A stretch of DNA of 32,000 nt from Candidatus Auribacterota bacterium (GTDB taxonomy: Bacteria; Auribacterota; UBA6266), in the NCBI GenBank assembly GCA_023136205.1, contig JAGLRQ010000040.1, positions 1 through 32,000 of the forward strand, given 5' to 3'. The notes beneath the pieces are model-generated. The model was not told where the DNA came from and ran no database searches. It saw only the letters and a program-made list of their open reading frames with translations. Positions 5,678 through 24,288 of this stretch are shown one piece after another (the first letter of the stretch is position 1; the number at the start of each line of letters is the position of its first letter). The position numbers and the translations under genes were made by a program.

Positions 5678-5858
5678 AAACCGGAAGGATTAACAGAATA
5701 TATGCCAAGCTGGTGAAAGATAAGTTAAACCTGTAATATTTTTTTTTATTTGAGTTAACATTTGTATAAACACTTAAGGTTCACACGAGCAGTAGAAAAC
5801 CGCGTTGGAAAGCATCAGGTAAGTGTGGAATTTTCGAAAGAAATAATATAGAATGAAC

Positions 5859-5887
5859 TTGACATATAGAAAAATGTATAGTAAAAA
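5859..5887 (+). promoter_or_regulatory. Candidate sigma70-type promoter of glnN
   Basis: TTGACA (5859-5864), 17-nt spacer, TAAAAA (5882-5887). The -10 is weak; an alternative TATAGT at 5877-5882 has too short a spacer. Confidence 0.35.
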
Positions 5888-5907
5888 GGACAACGATTTT
5901 GGAAATA

Positions 5908-5983
5908 GGTACAAAGTTGTACCGCCGGAAAAAAGATAACAAAGGCGTTCTTAAACCTGCAGGGTTTTTGAGTGCCTTTTTTT
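5908..5983 (+). promoter_or_regulatory. glnN leader: dual hexaloop hairpins (ANTAR-target-like) overlapping an intrinsic terminator
   Basis: P1 is GGUAC-AAAGUU-GUACC (5908-5923). P2 is AAC-AAAGGC-GUU (5938-5949). The terminator has 5' arm 5941-5957 and 3' arm 5963-5979 (17 positions with a 2-nt internal mismatch), followed by a U run to 5983. P2 sequesters the bottom of the terminator 5' arm. Both loops have A at position 1 and G at position 4. Confidence 0.55.
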
Positions 5984-6027
5984 GTTTGTGTTTATGGAGC
6001 AAATAGTAAAATAATAGGAGATAAAAT

Positions 6028-8136
6028 ATGAGCAGGAAATCTGAACTGGACCCAGCAAAAGCGATAACAGAGATTTATGGTGAAAACGTGTTTAGCTTTA
6101 AAACAATGCGCAATTATCTTTCGGATAAGGCGATTAACTCTTTGAGAGAAACTATGGAGAAGGGAAAGTCACTAAATCCGGCCATTGCTGATGAAGTTGC
6201 CGATGCCATGAAAAACTGGGCGGTTTCAAAAGGGGCAACCCATTTTACTCATTGGTTTCAGCCTCTGACCGGGACAACGGCAGAAAAGCATGATTCCTTT
6301 ATTGCCCCGGATTCTGAGGGAGGGGTAATACTTCAATTTTCAGGTAAAGAATTAATTCAGGGAGAGCCCGATGCTTCAAGTTTTCCGTCCGGAGGATTAA
6401 GGACTACTTTTGAAGCAAGGGGATACACTGCATGGGACCCGACCAGCCCCGCATTTATAAAAGAGGGAGAAAATGGGGCGACTCTCTGCATCCCGACCGT
6501 ATTTTGCGGGTACCACGGCGATTCTCTGGATAAAAAAACTCCTCTACTGAGGTCTATGGAAGCTTTATCAGAGCAGGTGTGCCGCTTAGGCAGGCTGTTT
6601 AAAATTAAAGATGGCGGAAGAAAAGCGTATGCGACTCTCGGAGCGGAACAGGAATATTTTCTTATAGATAAGGCCTTTTATGAAAGCCGGCTTGACCTTA
6701 TTCAAACGGGAAGAACAATATTTGGCAAAGCACCGGCAAAACACCAGCAAATGGAAGATCATTATTTTGGCGCCATTAAAGACAGGGTAATGTCTTTTAT
6801 GGATGACCTTGACAGAGAATTATGGAAACTCGGGATTCCGTCGAAAACCCGCCATAACGAGGTTTGTCCCGGCCAGTTTGAAGTCGCGGCTGTTTATGAA
6901 GGATTAAATTTGTCTGTTGACCATAACATGATGCTTATGGAAGTTCTGCGCAAGGTGGCTGAAGATCATGATTTTGTATGCCTTCTTCATGAAAAGCCGT
7001 TTGCCGGCGTTAATGGTTCGGGCAAACACAATAACTGGTCGATAAAAGGCCCGGATGGTAAAAACTGGCTGAGCCCGGGGGATAACCCGCATGATAACGC
7101 GAAGTTTCTGACGTTGATTTGCGCGCTTATCAAGGCGGTGGATACTCACGCGGAGATATTAAGAGCTTCGGTAGCTACCGCGGGTAATGATCACAGGCTT
7201 GGAGCTAACGAGGCGCCTCCCGCGATTTTATCAATTTTTCTTGGGGAACAATTAACGGGTGTGATCGGCCAGATAGAAAGAGGTGAGACCAAAACTTCCA
7301 AGAGCGGCGGTTTTATAAAAATCGGGGTTTCTTCGCTTCCAACCCTTCCGAGAGACGCGACCGACAGGAACAGGACATCGCCGTTTGCGTTTACCGGGAA
7401 TAAGTTTGAGTTCCGCGCGGTAGGCTCAAACCAGAACTGTGCCGGCCCAAACATAGTATTAAACACGATTGTCGCGGCGGCTATTGATGATATTTGCGCT
7501 TCACTTGAAAAAGATGTTTCCGCGAAAAAAGATTTTAACAAATCTTTACAGAAAATACTGCAGAAGATAGTTAAAGAACATAAACGTATTTTATTTAATG
7601 GGGATAATTATACTGACGCGTGGCACGCGGAAGCAAAGAAGAGAGGGCTTCCTAATCTAAAAACAACGCCTGAATCCTTAAAAATCCTCCTGGACGCGAA
7701 AACGGTTAAGCTTTTTGGAAAGTATAAGGTTTTATCAGAGAAAGAGCTTAAGTCCAGATTTGAGGTTTATCAAAAAGAGTATGATGAAATTATCCAGGTT
7801 GAATCGGAAGTAGCGGTAACAATAGCTAAGACACAGGTTATTAACGCGGCTTTGGAGTACCAGAGTGAATTGGCCGAAACCATCAATGCTGTTTCTAAGA
7901 TCGACAGGAAAAACGCGTTAAAATCAACAAGGGGCCTGCTTTCTGACGTATGCGCAAAAACAGAGGGCGCTCTTGTTTCAATAAGCAGGCTTGAGAAAGC
8001 CATAAAGAAAGGTTCATCAAAGGAGAAAATCGCGGCCCTGGCGAAACTTCGGGAATTTGTCGATGCTCTTGAAGGATTAGTTCCCGATGAAAAGTGGCCG
8101 CTCGCGACATATGCTGAAATGATGTTTATGATGTGA
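6028..8136 (+). CDS. glnN: Glutamine synthetase type III
   Basis: 702 aa, the length typical of GS-III (not the roughly 470-aa GS-I). SD AGGAG lies 7 nt upstream. Motifs include NEVCPGQFEVA, GSGKHNNWS and RLGANEAPPAI. Confidence 0.93.
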   Translation: MSRKSELDPAKAITEIYGENVFSFKTMRNYLSDKAINSLRETMEKGKSLNPAIADEVADAMKNWAVSKGATHFTHWFQPLTGTTAEKHDSFIAPDSEGGVILQFSGKELIQGEPDASSFPSGGLRTTFEARGYTAWDPTSPAFIKEGENGATLCIPTVFCGYHGDSLDKKTPLLRSMEALSEQVCRLGRLFKIKDGGRKAYATLGAEQEYFLIDKAFYESRLDLIQTGRTIFGKAPAKHQQMEDHYFGAIKDRVMSFMDDLDRELWKLGIPSKTRHNEVCPGQFEVAAVYEGLNLSVDHNMMLMEVLRKVAEDHDFVCLLHEKPFAGVNGSGKHNNWSIKGPDGKNWLSPGDNPHDNAKFLTLICALIKAVDTHAEILRASVATAGNDHRLGANEAPPAILSIFLGEQLTGVIGQIERGETKTSKSGGFIKIGVSSLPTLPRDATDRNRTSPFAFTGNKFEFRAVGSNQNCAGPNIVLNTIVAAAIDDICASLEKDVSAKKDFNKSLQKILQKIVKEHKRILFNGDNYTDAWHAEAKKRGLPNLKTTPESLKILLDAKTVKLFGKYKVLSEKELKSRFEVYQKEYDEIIQVESEVAVTIAKTQVINAALEYQSELAETINAVSKIDRKNALKSTRGLLSDVCAKTEGALVSISRLEKAIKKGSSKEKIAALAKLREFVDALEGLVPDEKWPLATYAEMMFMM

Positions 8137-17606: not shown

Positions 17607-17626
17607 TAAAAACAATAGAGAAATAA

Positions 17627-17679
17627 GAAAAGGGAGTTGACCCCCTTTTCCACCCCCTTTTTCCAGACCCCCTTTTCCA
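17627..17679 (+). repeat. Hairpin repeat GAAAAGGGAGTTGACCCCCTTTTCC (left copy) followed by a CCCCCTTTT(T)CCA x3 tandem array
   Basis: 17627-17651 is identical to 19691-19714 apart from one extra C. It has an 8-bp stem GAAAAGGG/CCCTTTTC. The tandem pyrimidine array spans 17641-17679. Confidence 0.8.
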
Positions 17680-17921
17680 TCTGTATAGCTCCGTATTGAT
17701 TCATTGATAGTGTAGTTGTTCAACAAACAGTTGTGAAAAAGCCAAATAAAAGATAAGATAAATTTTATACTAATAGTTGGTTTGCACAAAATACAAAACT
17801 TTGCTAACGTAAGACAGGAAGGTCTTTAGATGTAGGCTTATTCCAGAGCTTTATTATGTATTTATTTTATTACTATCTTTAATGTACGTTATTTGGGGCG
17901 GCTCATTAAAAGGAGGTCTAT

Positions 17922-18200
17922 ATGGAAAAAAAACGGAAGTTCGATCTGAACGAAATTAAAGCTCTCTTGCAGGAAAACGGATATACTATTGCTAGTGGCC
18001 TTAACCTAAGCTATAACACGGCGACTGAAAGTTGTGGTTCTTATTGCACCGGAGGCTGTAGAGGAGGCTGCTATACATGTAGTACTGGAACTTCTAAGAA
18101 AACAACGCAAGTAGTTCAACCTGCTATTCAAATTAGTAGAGAAAACATACTTGATAATATCTTAACAATAACAAATGCACCAGCAGTTCGAAAGAAGTAG
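17922..18200 (+). CDS. Cys-rich 92-aa peptide, candidate RiPP precursor / radical-SAM substrate
   Basis: Strong SD AAAGGAGG 6 nt upstream of the ATG. The central block ESCGSYCTGGCRGGCYTCSTGTS has five Cys spaced x3,x3,x3,x2. It lies directly upstream of a radical-SAM/SPASM gene on the same strand. Confidence 0.6.
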   Translation: MEKKRKFDLNEIKALLQENGYTIASGLNLSYNTATESCGSYCTGGCRGGCYTCSTGTSKKTTQVVQPAIQISRENILDNILTITNAPAVRKK

Positions 18201-18262
18201 AGTTGCTTCTTACTGGTTAAAAGAGATCTGCCGCCCCGAAATTAAATATCAGGAGAATTATA

Positions 18263-19690
18263 ATGAGATATCAACTGCACCACGATATCGGCATGAGATG
18301 TGATGTTGATAGAAATATCATTTATGTAAAAAATCCTGTTGAATCTGAATTGAGTGATTTTCTGCAGACAATTAATTCTGAATTGGCTGTCTTCCTCGGA
18401 CTGATGGATGGTTCTATGGAGATAGACGATGTCGTCCGGAACTGGAGCGAACTATTTTTCGGTACTAAACCTGACCGTGAGATTGGGAAGGTGCTTCAAG
18501 CTATGTTGAAGAGTAAACTCGGCCCGGATCTTCAGGTTCACCAAATATTGAACAAGGTGGATTCAAAGACATTAGGAAGAAGAGACCTCCCCGAAATAAG
18601 CACTCTTATTGTTCCCAAAGAAATCGAAAATATTGACGACCCGAGGCTCAGAATACCTCTCCAGATGCTCTTTATGCCAACGTTGGATTGTACCCAGAAG
18701 TGTTCCTACTGCTATAGCACGGAATCATATTCGGATAATATAAAGGCCCTTGAATTCAAGAGAATACAGGAAATAATGGAAGAGGCGAAAAGGCTTGGTA
18801 TGCACACAATAGATCTTTCCGGAGGAGAACCCGTTAGCTATAGACATTTCTTTCCTCTTCTGGAGAAGCTGTTTGAACTGGGGTTGGAGGTTAATTTGCC
18901 TACCAAATATCCACTCTCGAGAGAGGATGTAAAAAGGCTTAAAGCTATTGGCTTGAAAACGATACAAATAAGCATAGATGCCCTAACCCCAAAGGTTATA
19001 GATAAAGTTGTAGGCCTAAAAGGCTATGGACTAAAGATACTTAAGACACTCGATTACTTAGAAGAAGCGGCGATAGGCGTAAGAACGAACACGGTCATAA
19101 CATCATATACACTCGAAGAAGTAGAGCCCCTTATGCGCTTTTTAGCAACAAAAAAGAATATATACCGTGTAACTCAGTCACCCTATTCTATTTCCAGGTT
19201 TAAACACAAAAGCAAATTTCCAATCAGTAATGAAGAGTATAAAGTTATACTCGAGGCATCAGAAAAGATATTTGAATCGAGGCCCGATATAAGTTTTAAT
19301 CCAGGAGATGTATTCGAACCCTACGAAAAAGTTTCCGTTATCGAACGGGAGAAGAGCTGGGACGAGAGGTCTTTTTGTAGTGGCGGCAGGCAAAATTTTG
19401 CTCTCCTGCCCGATGGCAAAGTTACCATGTGTGAAGAGCTGTACTATCAGCGTCACTATATTATGGGTGACCTTACGGAGCAGTCGATCATGGAGATGTG
19501 GAATTCTCCAGAGGCAAAAAGCATATCCTATCCGCCGAAAGAACTATTTCCCGATGGGCCATGCAGAGATTGTAAAGACCTTGCTGCATGTCACTATTCT
19601 CCCGGAAGGTGCGTTAGAGAGGCTATTAAGCACTTCGGAGAAGATAAACATTATTATCCAGATCCTAGGTGTCCTAAGGCTCCTGTTTAA
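18263..19690 (+). CDS. Radical SAM / SPASM-domain peptide maturase with N-terminal PqqD-like (RRE-like) extension
   Basis: 475 aa with SD GGAG upstream. It has CxxxCxxC at C143/C147/C150 (LDCTQKCSYCY), GGEP (LSGGEPVSY), and a C-terminal Cys constellation (FCSGGRQNFALLPDGKVTMC, GPCRDCKDLAACHYSPGRC, PDPRCP) typical of SPASM auxiliary Fe-S clusters. Confidence 0.9.
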   Translation: MRYQLHHDIGMRCDVDRNIIYVKNPVESELSDFLQTINSELAVFLGLMDGSMEIDDVVRNWSELFFGTKPDREIGKVLQAMLKSKLGPDLQVHQILNKVDSKTLGRRDLPEISTLIVPKEIENIDDPRLRIPLQMLFMPTLDCTQKCSYCYSTESYSDNIKALEFKRIQEIMEEAKRLGMHTIDLSGGEPVSYRHFFPLLEKLFELGLEVNLPTKYPLSREDVKRLKAIGLKTIQISIDALTPKVIDKVVGLKGYGLKILKTLDYLEEAAIGVRTNTVITSYTLEEVEPLMRFLATKKNIYRVTQSPYSISRFKHKSKFPISNEEYKVILEASEKIFESRPDISFNPGDVFEPYEKVSVIEREKSWDERSFCSGGRQNFALLPDGKVTMCEELYYQRHYIMGDLTEQSIMEMWNSPEAKSISYPPKELFPDGPCRDCKDLAACHYSPGRCVREAIKHFGEDKHYYPDPRCPKAPV

Positions 19691-19736
19691 GAAAAGGGAG
19701 TTGACCCCTTTTCCTTTCCTTTTCCTTTTCCTTTTC
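19691..19736 (+). repeat. Hairpin repeat GAAAAGGGAGTTGACCCCTTTTCC (right copy) plus a CCTTT(T) x5 microsatellite; probable terminator of the radical-SAM gene
   Basis: It starts on the base after the TAA stop at 19688-19690. It has the same 8-bp stem as the left copy, followed by a U/C-rich tract (19707-19736). Confidence 0.7.
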
Positions 19737-19933
19737 ATTAGAGAACCGGCAAAATACACCCCCCCAATTTATACTCCCCGGAACAACAAACCCGGAAATA
19801 GGAACGGCTTGAAAGGTTATATGGGAAACACAAGGTAGTTGTATGTTTTGTTCAAATATATTGCTTGTTCATTAATAATGAACATTAGAATAAATTGAAC
19901 AATTCTGGGATATGGTGAAATAATAACTATCAT

Positions 19934-19993
19934 TTGACTTTTGTTCAAAAATAAGATATGTTCACAATAGATGAACATATCAATTATTTGAAC
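19934..19993 (+). promoter_or_regulatory. Promoter with nested GTTCA/TGAAC palindromic operator upstream of the AbiEi-like gene
   Basis: TTGACT (19934-19939), 17-nt spacer, TATGTT (19957-19962). The inner inverted repeat is ATATGTTCA (19956-19964) / TGAACATAT (19972-19980). The outer one is GTTCAAAAATAA (19943-) / TTATTTGAAC (-19993). A further perfect palindrome GTTCATTA-A-TAATGAAC lies at 19867-19883. Confidence 0.55.
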
Positions 19994-20008
19994 AGATTGA
20001 GGTGATAT

Positions 20009-21055
20009 ATGATTGACAAATATACAGAAAATGAAGTTTTTCAAGCTGCCTTGGCTGCCTTTAGAAAAAATCTAGATAGGCCAGTTGACTTTATCGTTGA
20101 CAATGCTGCAGAGCAATATTTGGACCAAAATGTAAGAGTGGATAGAACACTGCAGATAAACCTCGATGGCAAAGAAATTCGCTTTTGTGTTGAGATAAAA
20201 ACAAACATCAATACAGCAACAATTGGTCAATTGTTGAATCTAAAAAATCAGCTTCCTTATCCACTTATGCTTGTTACAAATTATACTAGAGAACATATTG
20301 CAAATCAATTAAGGCAGAATGGAATAGAATTCATTGATACAGCTGGAAATGCTTATATTAATCGGCCTCCCGTTTATATTTTTGTAATAGGAAATAAACC
20401 TCCTGAAGCTTTTATACAGGTTCCGGTTAAACAAGCTTTTAGGCCCACAGGCCTTAGAGTGGTTTTCGCTTTCCTATGCGATCCAAATTTAGTAAATAAA
20501 ACATATCGTGAGATTGCTGATACTGCAGGTGTTGCTCTTGGAAATATTGGATGGATAATGCGTGATTTAAGAAATTTTGGTTTTCTCTTAGAGATGGGAA
20601 AACATAAGTTTAAATTGGTCCAAAAAGAACAACTTTTAAATCGATGGGTTGTTGGATATCAAGAAAAATTAAGGCCAAAACTGTTAATAGGCCGTTTTGA
20701 GGGTGTCTTAGGTTGGTGGAAACAAAAAAATCTTAATTATAAGCATGCTCAATGGGGCGGGGAAGTTGCTGCTGCTAGATTAACGAAATATTTAAAACCA
20801 CAGAATATTATTATCTATGTAAAACAAAATTATCTCAAAGATTTAGTAATAGCAAATAGATTAAAAAAAGATATCCATGGTGAAACAGAAATTTTCAAAT
20901 GTTTTTGGAAACAAATTGGGCAAAATGAATTTCAAGATATTGTACATCCAATTCTTGTTTACGCGGATCTTATGGCAACAGGTGACCGGAGAAACATTGA
21001 AACGGCAAGGATGATTTATGAACAACATATTTTCCGATATATCAAAGAAGATTGA
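20009..21055 (+). CDS. AbiEi-like type IV toxin-antitoxin antitoxin / transcriptional regulator (putative)
   Basis: 348 aa with SD GAGGTG upstream. It has a central wHTH-like segment (YREIADTAGVALGNIGWIMRDLRNFGFL). The C-terminus (AQWGGEVAAARL...ILVYADLMATGDRRNIETARMIYEQ) resembles AbiEi_3-type antitoxins as I remember them. It is paired with a downstream nucleotidyltransferase. Confidence 0.55.
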   Translation: MIDKYTENEVFQAALAAFRKNLDRPVDFIVDNAAEQYLDQNVRVDRTLQINLDGKEIRFCVEIKTNINTATIGQLLNLKNQLPYPLMLVTNYTREHIANQLRQNGIEFIDTAGNAYINRPPVYIFVIGNKPPEAFIQVPVKQAFRPTGLRVVFAFLCDPNLVNKTYREIADTAGVALGNIGWIMRDLRNFGFLLEMGKHKFKLVQKEQLLNRWVVGYQEKLRPKLLIGRFEGVLGWWKQKNLNYKHAQWGGEVAAARLTKYLKPQNIIIYVKQNYLKDLVIANRLKKDIHGETEIFKCFWKQIGQNEFQDIVHPILVYADLMATGDRRNIETARMIYEQHIFRYIKED

Positions 21056-21869
21056 GCCATCTTTTGCTGATGCCCTTTCTGAAGTAAAAAAGATTGCGGA
21101 TGATTTAAGCATTCCTTTTTTCCTTATTGGAGCAAAAGCAAGGGATTGTATACTTGAGTACCATTATGATATTAGATCCCCTCGAGTTACTGAAGACATA
21201 GATATAGCTGTGCTGGTACCAGATTGGGAGAAATACAAAACCTTAACAGATGCCTTGCTTGCCACCAGTAAATTTTCTAAAGAAAAGCAAAAACAAAGAT
21301 ATGCTTACAATGATACCCTTATTGACATAGTTCCCTTTGGCCCTATTTCCGGCAAGAATAAAGAAGTAAAATGGCCTCCGGAATGTGAAGTCATTATGAG
21401 TACTTTTGGCTTTGAGGAAATCTACAAACATGCTATTACCCTTAGACTTCGTGATAACCCGATACTTGATGTAAAAATGCCCACGATTCCAGGGCTGGCA
21501 ATAATGAAATTAATATCATGGAGTGAAAGAAATTCCCCCGAACGGCAAAAAGATGCAAAAGATTTATTATTCATTATGAAAAACTATGAAGATGCTGGAA
21601 TTGAATCTCGTTTATATGAAAAAGAGAGTTCGTTACTCGAGGAAGAAGGGTTTGATAACCAGCTGGCAGGAATTAGGCTTCTTGGGCGTGATATGGCAAA
21701 AATATCTAACGCTGATACTTTAGAAAAAATTAAAGAAATTTTATCTAATGAAACTGGCGATCAAACACAATACGAATTAATATCCAATATGCTTGGCATA
21801 TCGGGCAGTTTTGAAGAAACATTAATGCAATTAGAAAAATTGGAGCAGGGCGTTTCAGAGGTTTTATAA
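21018..21869 (+). CDS. Nucleotidyltransferase-fold protein, AbiEii/AbiGii-like toxin (putative)
   Basis: 283 aa. It overlaps the upstream gene by 38 nt, with AAGGA 6 nt upstream of the ATG. The minimal NTase motif is FFLIGAKARDCIL...RVTEDIDIAVLV (G-x-[SA] ... DxD). Confidence 0.6.
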   Translation: MNNIFSDISKKIEPSFADALSEVKKIADDLSIPFFLIGAKARDCILEYHYDIRSPRVTEDIDIAVLVPDWEKYKTLTDALLATSKFSKEKQKQRYAYNDTLIDIVPFGPISGKNKEVKWPPECEVIMSTFGFEEIYKHAITLRLRDNPILDVKMPTIPGLAIMKLISWSERNSPERQKDAKDLLFIMKNYEDAGIESRLYEKESSLLEEEGFDNQLAGIRLLGRDMAKISNADTLEKIKEILSNETGDQTQYELISNMLGISGSFEETLMQLEKLEQGVSEVL

Positions 21870-22150: not shown

Positions 22151-22240
22151 CGCAAAAGAAAATCATGCGGTCATGTATGGCAGGGGAGGCCAAGTAAGAA
22201 AAGATAGAAACCGGCAGAAAAAGGCGCTGTCCCCTTTACC
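22151..22240 (+). repeat. 90-bp direct repeat, copy A
   Basis: CGCAAAAGAAAATCATGCGGTCATGTATGGCAGGGGAGGCCAAG...GGCGCTGTCCCCTTTACC. It matches 22532-22621 with a single mismatch (G/A). Confidence 0.85.
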
Positions 22241-22423
22241 CTTTCAAGAAAATACTGAAAGAGCAGGGTGAGATTTTCTTTCGTGCTATCACATCAAAAA
22301 AGGAGAAACAATTTTTAATCGGCGGAGGGTGGAAGTGGTTGTAGGGAAAAAGGGTAATTAAGTGTTGTGTCACCCGATTACCTGCGAAAAAATAAACCGG
22401 GACCTAGTCGGAAAGATAGTTAA

Positions 22424-22588
22424 GTGTTCTGTCCCCGGAATTGCGGAATTGCCCTTGGAACTCCAAACGATAAAGAATCTTTTTCAAAGGCATTCAATAT
22501 CCTTGCTATGAGGTACTCGCAGTATATAAACCGCAAAAGAAAATCATGCGGTCATGTATGGCAGGGGAGACCAAGTAAGAAAAGATAG
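22424..22588 (+). pseudogene. Fragment of an IS200/IS605-like Y1 (RAYT/COG1943-type) transposase gene
   Basis: The frame translates ...GTPNDKESFSKAFNILAMRYSQYINRKRKSCGHVWQGRPSKKR*. The stretch RYsQYiNRk.r..GHvWQGR matches the conserved Y..yfNrr..r.GHlWQGRyks block of this family. The HUH and Tyr regions are missing, so it is a truncated remnant. Confidence 0.5.
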
Positions 22589-22621
22589 AAACCGGCAGAA
22601 AAAGGCGCTGTCCCCTTTACC
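22532..22621 (+). repeat. 90-bp direct repeat, copy B (contains the 3' end of the transposase remnant)
   Basis: See copy A; the two copies are offset by 381 bp. Confidence 0.85.
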
Positions 22622-22643
22622 TTTACCTTTACCTTTACCTTTA
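22614..22643 (+). repeat. Hexanucleotide microsatellite (CCTTTA)x5
   Basis: Five perfect units, counted directly. It lies 65 nt upstream of the ATG of the 526-aa ORF. Copy A of the 90-bp repeat carries only one unit. Confidence 0.9.
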
Positions 22644-22707: not shown

Positions 22708-24288
22708 ATGTCAAATAAGAATAAAAAGCAAAAACGTTTTTCATCAATAAACAAGCATAAACGTGATGGGCGGATGCTTCGTTCTATGCCTGCCGATATG
22801 AAAGTTGACCTAATTGATTGGGAGCGAGATTTGATGCCGGAGCATATTTGGATAGATTTGCTCGCTGAGGAATATAAAGATAAGCCATGGCACAAAATTT
22901 ATGAACATTTTTTAGATGAATTGGATGCTGTTGGAAAAGGTATCCATTTGTTTGGATTGATTTCAGATTTTGGTCTAATCCCTGAAGATGCCCGCAAAAA
23001 ATTCGCATTATCAAAACAGGAGTTGATTTACGAGGCATTTTATAAACCCATCGGTGGCATTTTAAGCTTATATCCAGATAGCCCTGCAAGTTGGATGATT
23101 CTTGATGAGCACAAACAGGCTGATAATATAAACTTTGAGACTGAACTCGCAAGGTTGGCTAATTCCCTCAAAAGACTTATTAAGGCAAAAGATTTATATG
23201 CCGGACATATACGGATGATGCCATTTACAAGAGCAATAAAACATGGATTGGTTAAGATACCCCTTGACGAAAAGGAGATCGATATGCTTACACGATACCC
23301 TACCGGATGCAGTGAGGAGGAGCGGTATTCTATACAACAGCATGCAAGGGTAATAATGAATAGCCAGTATATGATAAACGACATATATCAGAAGAAGGTG
23401 TGGCCGAAATATTTTTGGAGACATAATTATAACTTAGTGCCTTGCCATCCCGTAAAAAAGTCATTGGATAGTGGTGATGATATTGATGTGGGGAAAATGA
23501 AATCTTTGCAAGAGCGAATTTGGACAAACTGTATAAGAATGATGAAATATCTTGATAAAATTGCTCAGCAGTATAAATACGATTTATTCGATCCGTTTAA
23601 GGATGAAATATTACTTGGACTTTTTTCAAGAGTTGTTCGCTTGTATATATCATTTGCCGCGAATCCGTTTTTATGGAATCGAGATCTCTCTGGGCTCATG
23701 TTGCGGTGCATCGGTGAAACAACTATATTGTTCTTTTATTTTGCGAATAAGGCCACTGATGAAGAATTTAGAAATTTTAAGAATTACTCTCAAGGGAAAG
23801 ATAAATTGTTGATGCTTCATTTACAAGATACGTTGTTATACGGCAAGTCTTTAGATGGTAAGAATATTGATCAGATCGCCCAAGATATTGGTGGAGGTTT
23901 GATAGCAGAAATGATGCCAATTGATTTAAAAGGATGGACTACAAAAAACATTCGTGATTTAGCATTGGAAACTGGATTAGAGCGAATTTATCGATGGGTT
24001 ATAGATCCATGTAGCTCTGAATTGCACGGATCATGGTCTAGTCTGCAGAAGTCTAATCTTGTTATTTGTGCCCAGATATTGCATCGTTTTCATAAGGTTC
24101 CGAAATTTTTCGAACCTCCTATAAGATTATTAACCCTATATGTTGCCAAAGAGATTTACTTACAGGCAAAGGAAAATGGCGTAAATAAACTTGGATTTCC
24201 AGAGCCTAATGAGACCTTGGATGAAATAGAGGAAATAAAAGCAGCCTATGACAAAGTGGTTAAAGATTATCAAGAGACAAATGTGTGA
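22708..24288 (+). CDS. Hypothetical 526-aa protein; C-terminal half resembles DUF5677-type helical domain (tentative)
   Basis: A long uninterrupted ORF in an AT-rich island. I recognise no catalytic motif. The segment MLRCIGETTILFFYFANKATDEEF...NIRDLALETGLERIYRWVIDPCSSELHGSWSSL resembles the pattern I associate with DUF5677 proteins found in defence islands. The SD is weak. Confidence 0.6.
   Translation: MSNKNKKQKRFSSINKHKRDGRMLRSMPADMKVDLIDWERDLMPEHIWIDLLAEEYKDKPWHKIYEHFLDELDAVGKGIHLFGLISDFGLIPEDARKKFALSKQELIYEAFYKPIGGILSLYPDSPASWMILDEHKQADNINFETELARLANSLKRLIKAKDLYAGHIRMMPFTRAIKHGLVKIPLDEKEIDMLTRYPTGCSEEERYSIQQHARVIMNSQYMINDIYQKKVWPKYFWRHNYNLVPCHPVKKSLDSGDDIDVGKMKSLQERIWTNCIRMMKYLDKIAQQYKYDLFDPFKDEILLGLFSRVVRLYISFAANPFLWNRDLSGLMLRCIGETTILFFYFANKATDEEFRNFKNYSQGKDKLLMLHLQDTLLYGKSLDGKNIDQIAQDIGGGLIAEMMPIDLKGWTTKNIRDLALETGLERIYRWVIDPCSSELHGSWSSLQKSNLVICAQILHRFHKVPKFFEPPIRLLTLYVAKEIYLQAKENGVNKLGFPEPNETLDEIEEIKAAYDKVVKDYQETNV

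What the first reader, a model, noticed from the sequence alone, without database searches (positions are those of the whole stretch)
17922..19690. Two-gene cassette: Cys-rich 92-aa peptide plus RRE/radical-SAM/SPASM maturase (candidate undescribed thioether-type RiPP or modified small protein)
- Peptide gene: ORF 17922-18200 has a strong SD. It encodes a charged helical N-terminal leader-like part (MEKKRKFDLNEIKALLQENGY...).
- Cys block: the central Gly/Ser/Thr/Tyr-rich block has five Cys, C38-x3-C42-x3-C46-x3-C50-x2-C53 (nt 18033-18080). It contains an internal 12-nt duplication that gives TGGC/RGGC.
- Tail: the block is followed by a Cys-free tail of about 39 aa.
- Enzyme gene: it starts 62 nt downstream. 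It has a PqqD-like N-terminal extension (INSELAVFLGLMDGSMEIDDVVRNW), a canonical CxxxCxxC, GGEP, and a full SPASM-type Cys set.
- Comparison with known systems: precursor plus maturase is the logic of SCIFF/ranthipeptide, sactipeptide, CcpM and QhpD systems. This peptide differs: it is about twice SCIFF length, the Cys block is central rather than C-terminal, and I do not recognise it as a named precursor family.
- Missing partners: no protease, ABC exporter or immunity gene is adjacent. That hints at an intracellular modified peptide rather than an exported bacteriocin.
Basis: partly seen in the sequence, partly recalled or inferred. Interest (0 to 1): 0.8.

Follow-up and report, generated by a model that had tools for sequence, protein, structure and literature searches.

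The report
Cysteine-rich peptide plus radical-SAM maturase
This is a real, self-contained two-gene unit in which a 92-residue cysteine-rich peptide is almost certainly modified by the radical-SAM enzyme encoded next to it; the enzyme family is widespread but has no curated model and no characterised member that I could find, so the chemistry it installs is unknown.

Summary
ORF 17922-18200 encodes a 92-aa peptide with C38x3C42x3C46x3C50x2C53. ORF 18263-19690 encodes a 475-aa radical-SAM/SPASM enzyme with an N-terminal domain that folds like a RiPP recognition element.

- **The peptide gene is real.** dN/dS is 0.06-0.19 in leader, core and tail.
- **The unit is discrete.** DNA similarity to cassettes in Nitrospirota and Zixibacteria MAGs covers only 17865-19690; the flanks are unrelated.
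- **The pairing is general.** About 95 full-length enzyme homologues exist. In 59 of 79 genome loci a small same-strand ORF with a Cys repeat (consensus CxxGCxxGCxx(x)CxxG) lies beside the enzyme. Peptide homologues found independently also sit upstream of this enzyme.
- **Bacteroidota relatives look exported.** They carry GG-type leaders and C39-ABC exporters.
- **No curated family fits.** No NCBIfam model reaches cutoff for enzyme or peptide. The peptide only weakly resembles TIGR04117, the "Cys-Xaa-Xaa-Xaa repeat radical SAM target".

The chemistry is inferred, not shown: thioether crosslinks are most likely, and SbtM-like thiooxazole formation at Gly-Cys is the main rival.

The window's clade is rare (8 clusters among 1.84 billion representatives). 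It has a central core and a conserved ~35-aa C-terminal follower, with no protease or exporter nearby. I rate it a new variant of a known kind, of moderate interest.

The parts
17892..17902 (+). 5' arm (TTTGGGGCGGC) of a long-range RNA helix that brackets the precursor ORF
   Evidence: Pairs with 18230-18240. It is conserved with compensatory changes in 5 close cassettes. 93.8% of cells are paired, against 33-52% in slid controls.
17910..17916 (+). Shine-Dalgarno sequence AAGGAGG of the precursor gene
   Evidence: Read directly from the sequence. Conserved in L001 and L002.
17922..18200 (+). Precursor gene, 92 aa. Leader is roughly residues 1-36 (helical, conserved L-x-E-I-K-x-L-L-Q-E-x-G-Y). 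Cys-rich core is roughly 37-58. The conserved follower is roughly 59-92 (Q-P-T-I-Q-L-x-R-E-N-I-L-D-D-I-L-T-I).
   Evidence: ORF and translation. Homologues P0002 and P0003. dN/dS 0.06-0.19 in all three parts. Eight related clusters, all with the same three-part layout except one (P0141, 70 aa, no follower).
18033..18080 (+). Cys block C38x3C42x3C46x3C50x2C53. C46, C50 and C53 are invariant and C42 is over 90% conserved across 36 precursors from many phyla.
   Evidence: Alignment A3. Position statistics: Gly at +3 of 59% of core Cys.
18230..18240 (+). 3' arm (GCCGCCCCGAA) of the bracketing RNA helix, in the 62-nt intergenic spacer
18263..19690 (+). Maturase gene, 475 aa, with RRE-like domain, radical-SAM core and SPASM domain
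   Evidence: Pfam. Family alignment A1. AlphaFold model with pLDDT 92.6. Foldseek best matches are SuiB, SkfB, CteB and PqqE.
18263..18562 (+). N-terminal RRE-like domain, residues about 1-100
   Evidence: Model of residues 1-126 has pLDDT 90.9. The 12 best PDB matches are all leader-binding proteins or RRE-bearing enzymes: TbiB1 with leader, ThcOx, lasso B1 and SuiB. The first 11 have prob 0.44-0.99; the 12th is a further SuiB chain with prob 0.15 and rmsd 13.5. E-values are only 0.03-0.3.
18689..18712 (+). CxxxCxxC motif (C143, C147, C150) for the SAM-cleaving [4Fe-4S] cluster
   Evidence: Invariant in 42 homologues.
19376..19672 (+). SPASM region with seven invariant Cys (372, 390, 434, 437, 443, 450, 470) for two auxiliary clusters
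   Evidence: Pfam SPASM at 47.7 bits. Invariant columns.
19688..19713 (+). Terminator-like hairpin directly after the maturase stop codon. It is also the second copy of a 25-nt direct repeat.
17624..17648 (+). First copy of the 25-nt direct repeat TAAGAAAAGGGAGTTGACCCCCTTT, upstream of the cassette
   Evidence: 2 matches in the window against 0.00 expected.

Best explanation
This is a self-contained two-gene RiPP-type cassette.

**Proposed mechanism.**
- The 92-aa product is a precursor with an N-terminal helical leader, a central Cys-rich core and a conserved C-terminal follower.
- The N-terminal RRE-like domain of the downstream enzyme docks the precursor.
- The radical-SAM centre (C143/C147/C150) cleaves SAM to a 5'-deoxyadenosyl radical, which abstracts a hydrogen from the core.
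- The two SPASM auxiliary clusters handle substrate ligation and electron removal.
- The most likely outcome is several intramolecular Cys-sulfur-to-carbon thioether crosslinks (sactionine or ranthionine type) within the CxxG repeats.
- No protease or exporter is conserved beside it. The product of this clade is therefore most likely a crosslinked small protein or long peptide that is kept in the cell, or released by machinery encoded elsewhere.

**Shown:** gene reality, enzyme architecture, the conserved enzyme-precursor pairing, and cassette autonomy.

**Inferred:** that the peptide is the substrate, the thioether chemistry, and the product's location.
For: **Enzyme.**
- It has radical-SAM and SPASM domains with all cluster Cys invariant.
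- The confident model (pLDDT 92.6) best matches the RiPP maturases SuiB, SkfB and CteB over nearly its full length.
- Its N-terminal domain matches leader-bound RRE structures ahead of anything else.

**Pairing.**
- 59 of 79 genome loci carrying a homologue have a same-strand small ORF with C-x(2,3)-C-x(2,3)-C beside it. The density is 0.35 per kb, against 0.05 per kb in distal flanks.
- Most of the remaining loci carry variant Cys peptides or are cut by contig ends.
- The association holds in reverse. Peptide homologues P0136 and P0140, found by a peptide profile alone, lie upstream of 480-484-aa rSAM/SPASM genes.

**Precursor features.**
- The precursors share an alignable core with invariant Cys, while leaders and inter-Cys residues vary.
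- Tandem precursor paralogues occur.
- Bacteroidota members have GG leaders and C39-peptidase ABC exporters in 42 of 80 loci.

**Cassette autonomy.**
- DNA homology to L001 and L002 is limited to 17865-19690.
- No other conserved neighbour is found in the non-Bacteroidota loci.

**Purifying selection.** It acts on leader, core and follower.

**Thioether inference.**
- Cys are the only invariant side chains.
- Seven SPASM Cys leave Aux I with three protein ligands, as in CteB where the substrate Cys binds that cluster (own knowledge of the CteB structure; 5wgg is among the top fold hits).
- The Ser/Thr/Gly-rich 4-residue Cys spacing resembles SCIFF cores (own knowledge).
Against: - No chemistry was tested.
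- By sequence the enzyme is no closer to thioether synthases than to C-C-forming enzymes. CteB scores E 5e-7, SkfB 3e-19 and StsB 43 bits, against PqqE at 5e-25 and SuiB at 3e-19.
- No conserved acceptor side chain (such as Asp, Thr or Asn) accompanies the Cys. Only Gly at +3/-1 is enriched. That fits SbtM-type chemistry at Gly-Cys equally well (PMC9204691).
- RRE fold matches have weak E-values of 0.03-0.3.
- Taxonomic labels come from MAGs.
- A 35-aa conserved follower is unusual for known sacti- and ranthipeptides and is unexplained.
Confidence: 0.55

Rival explanations
1. Same precursor-maturase pair, but the enzyme works like SbtM. It oxidises each Cys of a Gly-Cys unit and cyclises it onto the preceding carbonyl. 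This gives thiooxazole(s) with free thiols, so the product would be a multidentate metal-binding peptide.
For: - Gly is by far the commonest residue before core Cys (45% at -1, 59% at +3 of the previous Cys), while other positions vary.
- SbtM acts on a conserved Gly-Cys(Sec) motif with loss of 4 Da (PMC9204691).
- SbtM is among the NCBIfam hits of the enzyme (47 bits).
- Lack of an exporter or immunity gene fits a metal-handling role better than an antibiotic role.
Against: - The SbtM hit is far below its cutoff (47 against 350 bits) and weaker than hits to PqqE, MftC and others.
- The last, invariant Cys pair in this clade is C-Y-T-C, not Gly-Cys.
- No metal transporter or regulator is conserved nearby.
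Confidence: 0.17
2. Same pair, but the enzyme installs another radical-SAM modification. Examples are C-C or C-O crosslinks involving the conserved Tyr of C-Y-T-C, epimerisation, or a crosslink not yet described.
For: - The closest relatives by sequence and fold include the C-C crosslinkers PqqE and SuiB.
- The family matches no curated model, so function cannot be transferred.
- Tyr after the third conserved Cys recurs in the window clade.
Against: - Tyr is not conserved across the wider family (CTTC, CQTC, CHTC, CINC), whereas the Cys are invariant.
- Among the solved RiPP maturases matched here, the C-C crosslinkers PqqE and SuiB act on substrates without a Cys-repeat core (own knowledge), so an invariant Cys repeat would be unexpected for that chemistry.
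Confidence: 0.15
3. The peptide is not a substrate. It is a small Fe-S or metal-binding partner (C42/C46/C50/C53) that merely travels with the enzyme, for example as an electron donor.
For: - C46x3C50x2C53 has the spacing of the radical-SAM cluster motif. This produced weak spurious hits of the peptide to Cfr methyltransferases.
- Four conserved Cys could hold a cluster.
Against: - The enzyme carries a leader-binding RRE-type domain.
- Relatives have GG leaders with C39 exporters, and tandem hypervariable paralogues.
- Cys number varies from 3 to 10.
- In Bacteroidota the spacing is CxxxC throughout.
Confidence: 0.04
4. The enzyme is an anaerobic sulfatase maturase-like or cofactor-biosynthesis radical-SAM enzyme, and the small ORF is incidental.
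For: SPASM enzymes include anSME, PqqE, MftC and haem-related enzymes, which all appear as weak hits.
Against: - All such hits are at least 4-fold below their cutoffs.
- No sulfatase, pqq, mft or haem genes are nearby.
- The small ORF is conserved, selected and always adjacent.
Confidence: 0.02

Closest known systems
SCIFF / ranthipeptide systems (CteA-CteB, Tte1186a-Tte1186)
   Same: - Minimal two-gene cassette: a Cys-rich precursor followed by an RRE-rSAM-SPASM maturase.
- Often no adjacent protease or exporter.
- Cys spaced 3-4 residues apart among small polar residues.
- Seven-Cys SPASM.
- CteB is among the best fold matches.
   Different: - CteB is only a remote sequence relative (E 5e-7).
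- The peptide gives no SCIFF model hit at E<=1.
- The precursor is twice as long, its core is central, and a conserved ~35-aa follower is present.
- The phyla differ: Aureabacteria, Nitrospirota and Zixibacteria rather than Clostridia.
NCBIfam/TIGRFAM 'Cys-Xaa-Xaa-Xaa repeat radical SAM target' peptides (TIGR04117 Syntroph_Cxxx; TIGR04118 AC3_0185 family)
   Same: - Roughly 98-aa peptides with a central run of CxxxC repeats, predicted to be rSAM substrates.
- This is the only curated peptide model with any signal. 6 of 36 precursors of this family hit it weakly.
   Different: - Scores are 20 bits against a cutoff of 50. The match covers only the Cys block (residues 27-61).
- These families are themselves bioinformatic predictions. 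I found no paper on their chemistry.
SuiB / streptide
   Same: Best structural match over the whole length: E 2e-19, TMq 0.63, about 435 aligned columns. It has the same three-domain order of RRE, rSAM and SPASM.
   Different: SuiB makes a Lys-Trp C-C bond on a Cys-free core. Identity is 19%.
PqqE / PqqA
   Same: Best sequence match among solved structures (E 5.5e-25) and among NCBIfam models. It is a peptide-modifying SPASM enzyme.
   Different: - The score is 81 bits against a 381 cutoff.
- PqqE uses a separate PqqD.
- There is no Glu-x3-Tyr peptide and no pqqBCD genes here.
QhpD / QhpC
   Same: An rSAM-SPASM enzyme installs several Cys thioethers into a protein-sized substrate of about 80-110 aa that stays in the cell (own knowledge).
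   Different: No qhpA/B dehydrogenase genes are nearby. The enzyme is not detectably closer to QhpD than to other SPASM enzymes.
SbtM thio(seleno)oxazole maturase
   Same: An rSAM-SPASM enzyme acting on a conserved Gly-Cys motif (PMC9204691). Gly-Cys is the commonest dipeptide in this core.
   Different: The score is 47 bits against a 350 cutoff. There is no selenocysteine signal, and the N-terminal domain differs.

Membership tests
Radical SAM superfamily | PF04055 above the gathering score, with CxxxCxxC | tested here: met
   73.4 bits against 29.5. C143, C147 and C150 are invariant.
SPASM subfamily | C-terminal SPASM domain with 7-8 Cys for two auxiliary clusters | tested here: met
   PF13186 at 47.7 bits against 21.5. 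Seven Cys are invariant, including Gx4C and Cx2Cx5C.
RRE-dependent RiPP maturases | N-terminal PqqD-like winged-helix RiPP recognition element | tested here: inconclusive
   - No Pfam PqqD hit.
- The confident domain model (pLDDT 90.9) has RRE or leader-complex structures as all of its best 12 PDB matches; the first 11 have prob 0.44-0.99 and the 12th is a low-probability SuiB chain. E-values are only 0.03-0.3.
- The full-length model aligns with SuiB including its RRE.
RRE-dependent RiPP maturases | Enzyme gene consistently adjacent to a short precursor gene | tested here: met
   59 of 79 loci by a strict pattern, and more by eye. The reverse check also holds.
SCIFF / ranthipeptide | Precursor matches the SCIFF model (six Cys in about 45 aa, C-terminal core) | tested here: not met
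   No SCIFF hit at E<=1. The peptide is 92 aa with a central core.
SCIFF / ranthipeptide | Maturase belongs to the SCIFF maturase family | tested here: not met
   It is not among the 25 best NCBIfam hits, the 25th of which scores 42.5 bits. CteB scores E 5e-7.
SCIFF / ranthipeptide | Cys S to C-beta or C-gamma thioether in the product | not testable with these tools
   Needs MS/NMR of the modified peptide.
Sactipeptides | Maturase of an AlbA/SkfB/StsB-type family, and Cys S to C-alpha bonds | tested here: not met
   StsB scores 43 bits against a 625 cutoff. SkfB is a remote match at E 3e-19. Bond type is not testable.
Cys-Xaa-Xaa-Xaa repeat rSAM target (TIGR04117) | Peptide scores above the model's 50-bit cutoff | tested here: not met
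   20 bits, E 5e-4, Cys block only. The best E-value of any of the 36 relatives is 3.6e-5.
Anaerobic sulfatase maturase | Close similarity to anSME, eight auxiliary-cluster Cys, no RRE, and a sulfatase partner | tested here: not met
   Not among the top NCBIfam hits. 4k36 scores E 5.7e-7. Seven Cys and an N-terminal domain are present. No sulfatase is nearby.
PqqE | TIGR02109 above 381 bits, with pqqABCD context | tested here: not met
   81 bits. No pqq genes in the window.
Exported GG-leader bacteriocin-type RiPPs | Double-glycine leader with a C39 peptidase-ABC exporter in the locus | tested here: not met
   Absent from the window, L001 and L002. Present in 42 of 80 loci, mostly Bacteroidota relatives.

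The most novel reading that the evidence does not exclude
The family installs a modification not yet known for Cys-repeat peptides. One example is an array of thiooxazoles, or another Gly-Cys-centred crosslink. In this clade the result would be a roughly 90-aa intracellular crosslinked or metal-binding small protein whose conserved follower helix is part of the functional product. On this reading it is not a secreted antibiotic. The same chemistry would then also operate in the many gut Bacteroidota members, for example Segatella copri.
Probability: 0.25. Interest if true: 0.75.

Novelty: new variant of a known kind. Interest (0 to 1): 0.5.

Why it matters
Radical-SAM/SPASM peptide maturases have repeatedly yielded new bond-forming chemistry. 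This family looks large: about 95 full-length homologues in the protein search and 114 confirmed hits in species-representative genomes. It spans Bacteroidota (including Segatella copri and Parabacteroides), Paenibacillus, Methanothrix, Acidobacteriota and Desulfobacterota.

No NCBIfam model captures it, and I found no paper on it. The window carries its simplest form: one precursor and one enzyme, with homology boundaries defined to the nucleotide. That makes it a convenient unit for heterologous co-expression.

Solving its product would assign chemistry to the whole family. It would also test whether a conserved C-terminal follower, and the absence of export genes, mark an intracellular modified small protein.

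Tried and rejected
- **Curated families.** I scanned the window enzyme, ten diverse homologues and 36 precursors against NCBIfam. Nothing reached a cutoff.
- **Database names.** All precursor hits are 'hypothetical' or unnamed.
- **Literature.** Searches for CXXX repeat, the TIGR04115-04118 accessions, CxxxC + RiPP, and ranthipeptide + Bacteroid found no paper on this family. Haft & Basu 2011 and the Clark & Seyedsayamdost atlas are not held.
- **Conserved partner genes.** ORF clustering of the non-Bacteroidota loci found none beyond peptide and enzyme. An M16 peptidase follows the enzyme in one locus only (L082).
- **Mobile-element footprint.** The 25-nt direct repeat flanking the cassette is absent from L001 and L002. 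G+C of the cassette (~0.41) is close to the upstream core genes. No insertion mechanism could be assigned.
- **Core-motif HMM.** An HMM of the core was too insensitive for counting precursors (42 of 84 loci), so I used a pattern count with a distal-flank control.
- **Spurious hits.** The peptide's Pfam hit to GP88 (E 0.035) and its weak hits to Cfr methyltransferases are treated as noise or motif mimicry.
Full report
**1. What is in the sequence**

- The 92-aa ORF (17922-18200) sits behind an AAGGAGG. The 475-aa ORF (18263-19690) starts 62 nt downstream behind an AGGAG.
- The peptide has Cys at residues 38, 42, 46, 50 and 53.
- The enzyme has C143x3C147x2C150, SGGEP, and seven C-terminal Cys.
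- Pfam assigns Radical_SAM (73 bits) and SPASM (47.7 bits), both above threshold, and finds nothing in the first 130 residues.
- A terminator-like hairpin follows the enzyme stop codon.
- Both proteins match exactly proteins from a 64-kb contig labelled Candidatus Aureabacteria.

**2. The small ORF is a real gene**

- Three relatives share 60-73% identity over the full alignments (76/63% over local BLASTP alignments). They carry Nitrospirota and Zixibacteria labels, plus one unnamed.
- Pairwise dN/dS is 0.06-0.19, with synonymous sites near saturation. The excess of synonymous change is seen separately in leader (1-36), core (37-57) and tail (58-92).
- A profile of these peptides was searched against 1.84 billion representative proteins. 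It finds only eight related clusters of 70-108 aa, all but one (P0141, 70 aa, which ends just after the core) with the same three parts:
  - a leader L-x-E-A-E/K-x-L-R/Q-x-A/N-G-Y;
  - a core C-(S/T)-G-G-C-x-x-G-C-Y-(T/S)-C-S-(P/T)-G-x-S;
  - a follower (Q/H)-P-T-(I/F)-Q ... I-(L/V)-(D/E)-(D/E)-(L/I)-(V/L)-T-(I/V).
- This clade is therefore rare.

**3. The cassette is an autonomous unit**

- BLASTN of the whole window against the Nitrospirota and Zixibacteria loci aligns only 17865-19690. That span runs from 57 nt upstream of the peptide start to the enzyme stop.
- The flanking genes are unrelated:
  - The window has glutamate synthase, a PPDK_N protein and a GAF-ANTAR regulator upstream. Downstream it has an AbiEi/AbiEii pair and a DUF5677 protein.
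  - L001 has a di-haem peroxidase, an MBL-fold protein and DNA ligase.
- The enzymes are 78-85% identical across MAGs assigned to three phyla. This suggests horizontal spread, subject to the reliability of MAG binning.
- Clustering all flanking ORFs of 30 non-Bacteroidota loci finds nothing shared beyond peptide and enzyme.

**4. The enzyme family and its partners**

- About 95 proteins align over the full length at 30-84% identity.
- In a 42-sequence alignment, the three rSAM Cys, seven SPASM Cys, the GG of the GGEP motif (S186 nearly invariant), and D14/R17/G50 of the N-terminal domain are invariant.
- A scan of one genome per species confirmed 114 relatives and returned 79 loci.
- In 59 of the 79 loci, a same-strand ORF of 135 aa or less containing C-x(2,3)-C-x(2,3)-C lies within 2 kb upstream or 1.3 kb downstream. 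The density is 0.35 per kb, against 0.05 per kb in distal flanks.
- Most of the other 20 loci carry variant Cys peptides such as CxxCC or CKCHNNSSC, or are cut by contig ends.
- Thirty-six precursors from Paenibacillus, Methanothrix, Geothrix, Breoghania, Syntrophobacteraceae, Clostridia, Ignavibacteriales and many Bacteroidota align in the core. C46, C50 and C53 are invariant and C42 is over 90% conserved.
- Over 280 core Cys, the spacing is 3 residues in 169 of 258 consecutive pairs. Gly occupies +3 in 59% and -1 in 45%. All other positions vary.
- Non-Bacteroidota leaders share a helical motif (hydrophobic-x-x-hydrophobic-K-x-hydrophobic-hydrophobic-x-x-x-G-hydrophobic).
- Bacteroidota leaders are double-glycine type. 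Their loci hold C39-peptidase ABC exporters (42 of 80 loci) and a large outer-membrane protein (41 of 80).
- The reverse test also holds. Peptide homologues found without reference to the enzyme sit just upstream of 480-484-aa rSAM/SPASM genes, once as two tandem paralogues. New metagenome loci behave the same way.

**5. Structure**

- The AlphaFold model built from the family alignment is confident (pLDDT 92.6, pTM 0.90).
- Its best PDB matches are SuiB (E 2e-19, about 435 aligned columns), SkfB, CteB and PqqE. All are peptide-modifying SPASM enzymes, and three of them (SuiB, SkfB, CteB) carry an N-terminal extension ahead of the rSAM core, an RRE in SuiB and CteB.
- Residues 1-126 modelled alone reach pLDDT 90.9.
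- For that domain, the 12 best matches are all RRE-containing proteins or leader complexes: TbiB1 with leader, ThcOx, lasso B1 and SuiB. The first 11 have probabilities of 0.44-0.99; the 12th is a further SuiB chain at prob 0.15. E-values are weak at 0.03-0.3.
- I therefore treat the RRE assignment as probable rather than proven.

**6. Relation to known families**

- The best NCBIfam hit is PqqE, at 81 bits against a 381-bit cutoff.
- Every other hit is also several-fold below cutoff. These include MftC, GeoRSP, ScmE, the ACGX system, DynA, SbtM, WgkB and StsB.
- Ten diverse members of the family likewise reach no cutoff.
- By profile search of PDB sequences, PqqE (5e-25), SuiB and SkfB (3e-19) lead. 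CteB and anSME are at 5e-7.
- The peptide's only meaningful hit is TIGR04117, 'Cys-Xaa-Xaa-Xaa repeat radical SAM target protein'. It scores 20 bits against a cutoff of 50 and covers only the Cys block. Six of 36 relatives hit it weakly.
- The cassette therefore works like SCIFF/ranthipeptide and CXXX-repeat systems. It is not a member of any of them by their own criteria.
- I found no publication on this family.

**7. Mechanism**

- *Shown:* the architecture and the pairing.
- *Inferred:* the enzyme docks the precursor through the RRE-like domain and abstracts a hydrogen in the Cys-repeat core.
- *Thioether formation is the leading reading, for three reasons.*
  - Cys are the only invariant side chains.
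  - The seven-Cys SPASM leaves Aux I one ligand short, as in CteB where the substrate Cys binds it (own knowledge).
  - The core resembles SCIFF cores (own knowledge).
- *Weaknesses of the thioether reading.*
  - No conserved acceptor residue exists other than Gly.
  - The enzyme is no nearer to thioether synthases than to C-C crosslinkers.
- *Best alternative.* SbtM converts Gly-Cys to a thiooxazole (PMC9204691), and Gly-Cys dominates this core. An SbtM-like reaction giving a metal-binding product is therefore the strongest rival.
- *Follower.* Follower regions of similar pattern (hydrophobic-hydrophobic-x-P ... I-I/L-x-D/E-L/I) also occur in an 87-aa deltaproteobacterial clade and in L014 and L018. 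The follower is thus an old and selected part of some precursors. Its role is open: a second recognition element, or part of the product.

**8. Verdict**

- This is a new variant (a family without a curated model, a central core plus follower, and a minimal cassette) of a known kind, namely rSAM/SPASM-modified Cys-rich peptides.
- Interest is moderate. Many orphan rSAM-RiPP families exist, but this one is broad, reaches common gut bacteria, and has unknown chemistry.

Noticed in passing
window 17892-17902 and 18230-18240: An 11-13-bp long-range RNA helix brackets the whole precursor ORF, from the 5'UTR to the intergenic spacer. It is kept in five close cassettes with compensatory changes (G-C to A-U, C-G to U-A). 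93.8% of cells are paired, against 33-52% in slid controls. It may be a processing or stability element that uncouples precursor and enzyme expression.
   Followed up: yes
window 17624-17648 and 19688-19712: A 25-nt direct repeat, TAAGAAAAGGGAGTTGACCCC(C)TTT, flanks the cassette. Each copy forms a terminator-like hairpin followed by a pyrimidine-rich run. There are 2 matches in the window against 0 expected, and none in L001 or L002. It could be a duplicated terminator or an insertion footprint.
   Followed up: partly
window 22151-22243 and 22532-22624: A 93-nt direct repeat, 98% identical, lies in the intergenic region between the AbiE pair and the DUF5677 gene. Its nature is unknown.
   Followed up: no
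window 20009-21869, 22708-24288: Directly downstream lie an AbiEi antitoxin / AbiEii nucleotidyltransferase toxin pair with overlapping ORFs, and a DUF5677 protein. They sit in a lower-G+C stretch (0.34-0.39) that looks like an accessory or defence islet.
   Followed up: partly
window 19846-19994: Nested direct and inverted repeats of TGTTCA...TGAACA lie just upstream of the AbiEi gene (D2, I1, I4). They look operator-like.
   Followed up: no
L022-L079 (e.g. L071 Segatella copri 5726-7467; L070 4410-7434): The Bacteroidota branch of the enzyme family has one to four GG-leader CxxxC-repeat precursors. It also has a C39-ABC exporter and a large TonB-type outer-membrane protein. No curated family fits these enzymes either.
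   Followed up: partly
L011 5878-8903 (Geothrix alkalitolerans): Two tandem paralogous rSAM/SPASM genes of this family follow one precursor. They are flanked by HlyD-like and FtsX/MacB-like export genes.
   Followed up: no
L084 3459-5233: Both the precursor and the N-terminus of the enzyme are split by frame changes in this 433-kb contig. An intact version of the precursor (P0139) exists elsewhere. This is either a pseudogenised cassette or a long-read assembly error.
   Followed up: no
L082 2469-5162: An 897-aa M16 (insulinase-type) peptidase follows the enzyme on the same strand. This is the only locus of the window clade with a candidate leader protease.
   Followed up: no
window 18057-18080 (peptide residues 46-53): C46x3C50x2C53 has the spacing of the radical-SAM cluster-binding motif. 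As a result the peptide gives weak hits (E about 0.1) to the cluster loop of Cfr methyltransferases. This is probably coincidence.
   Followed up: no
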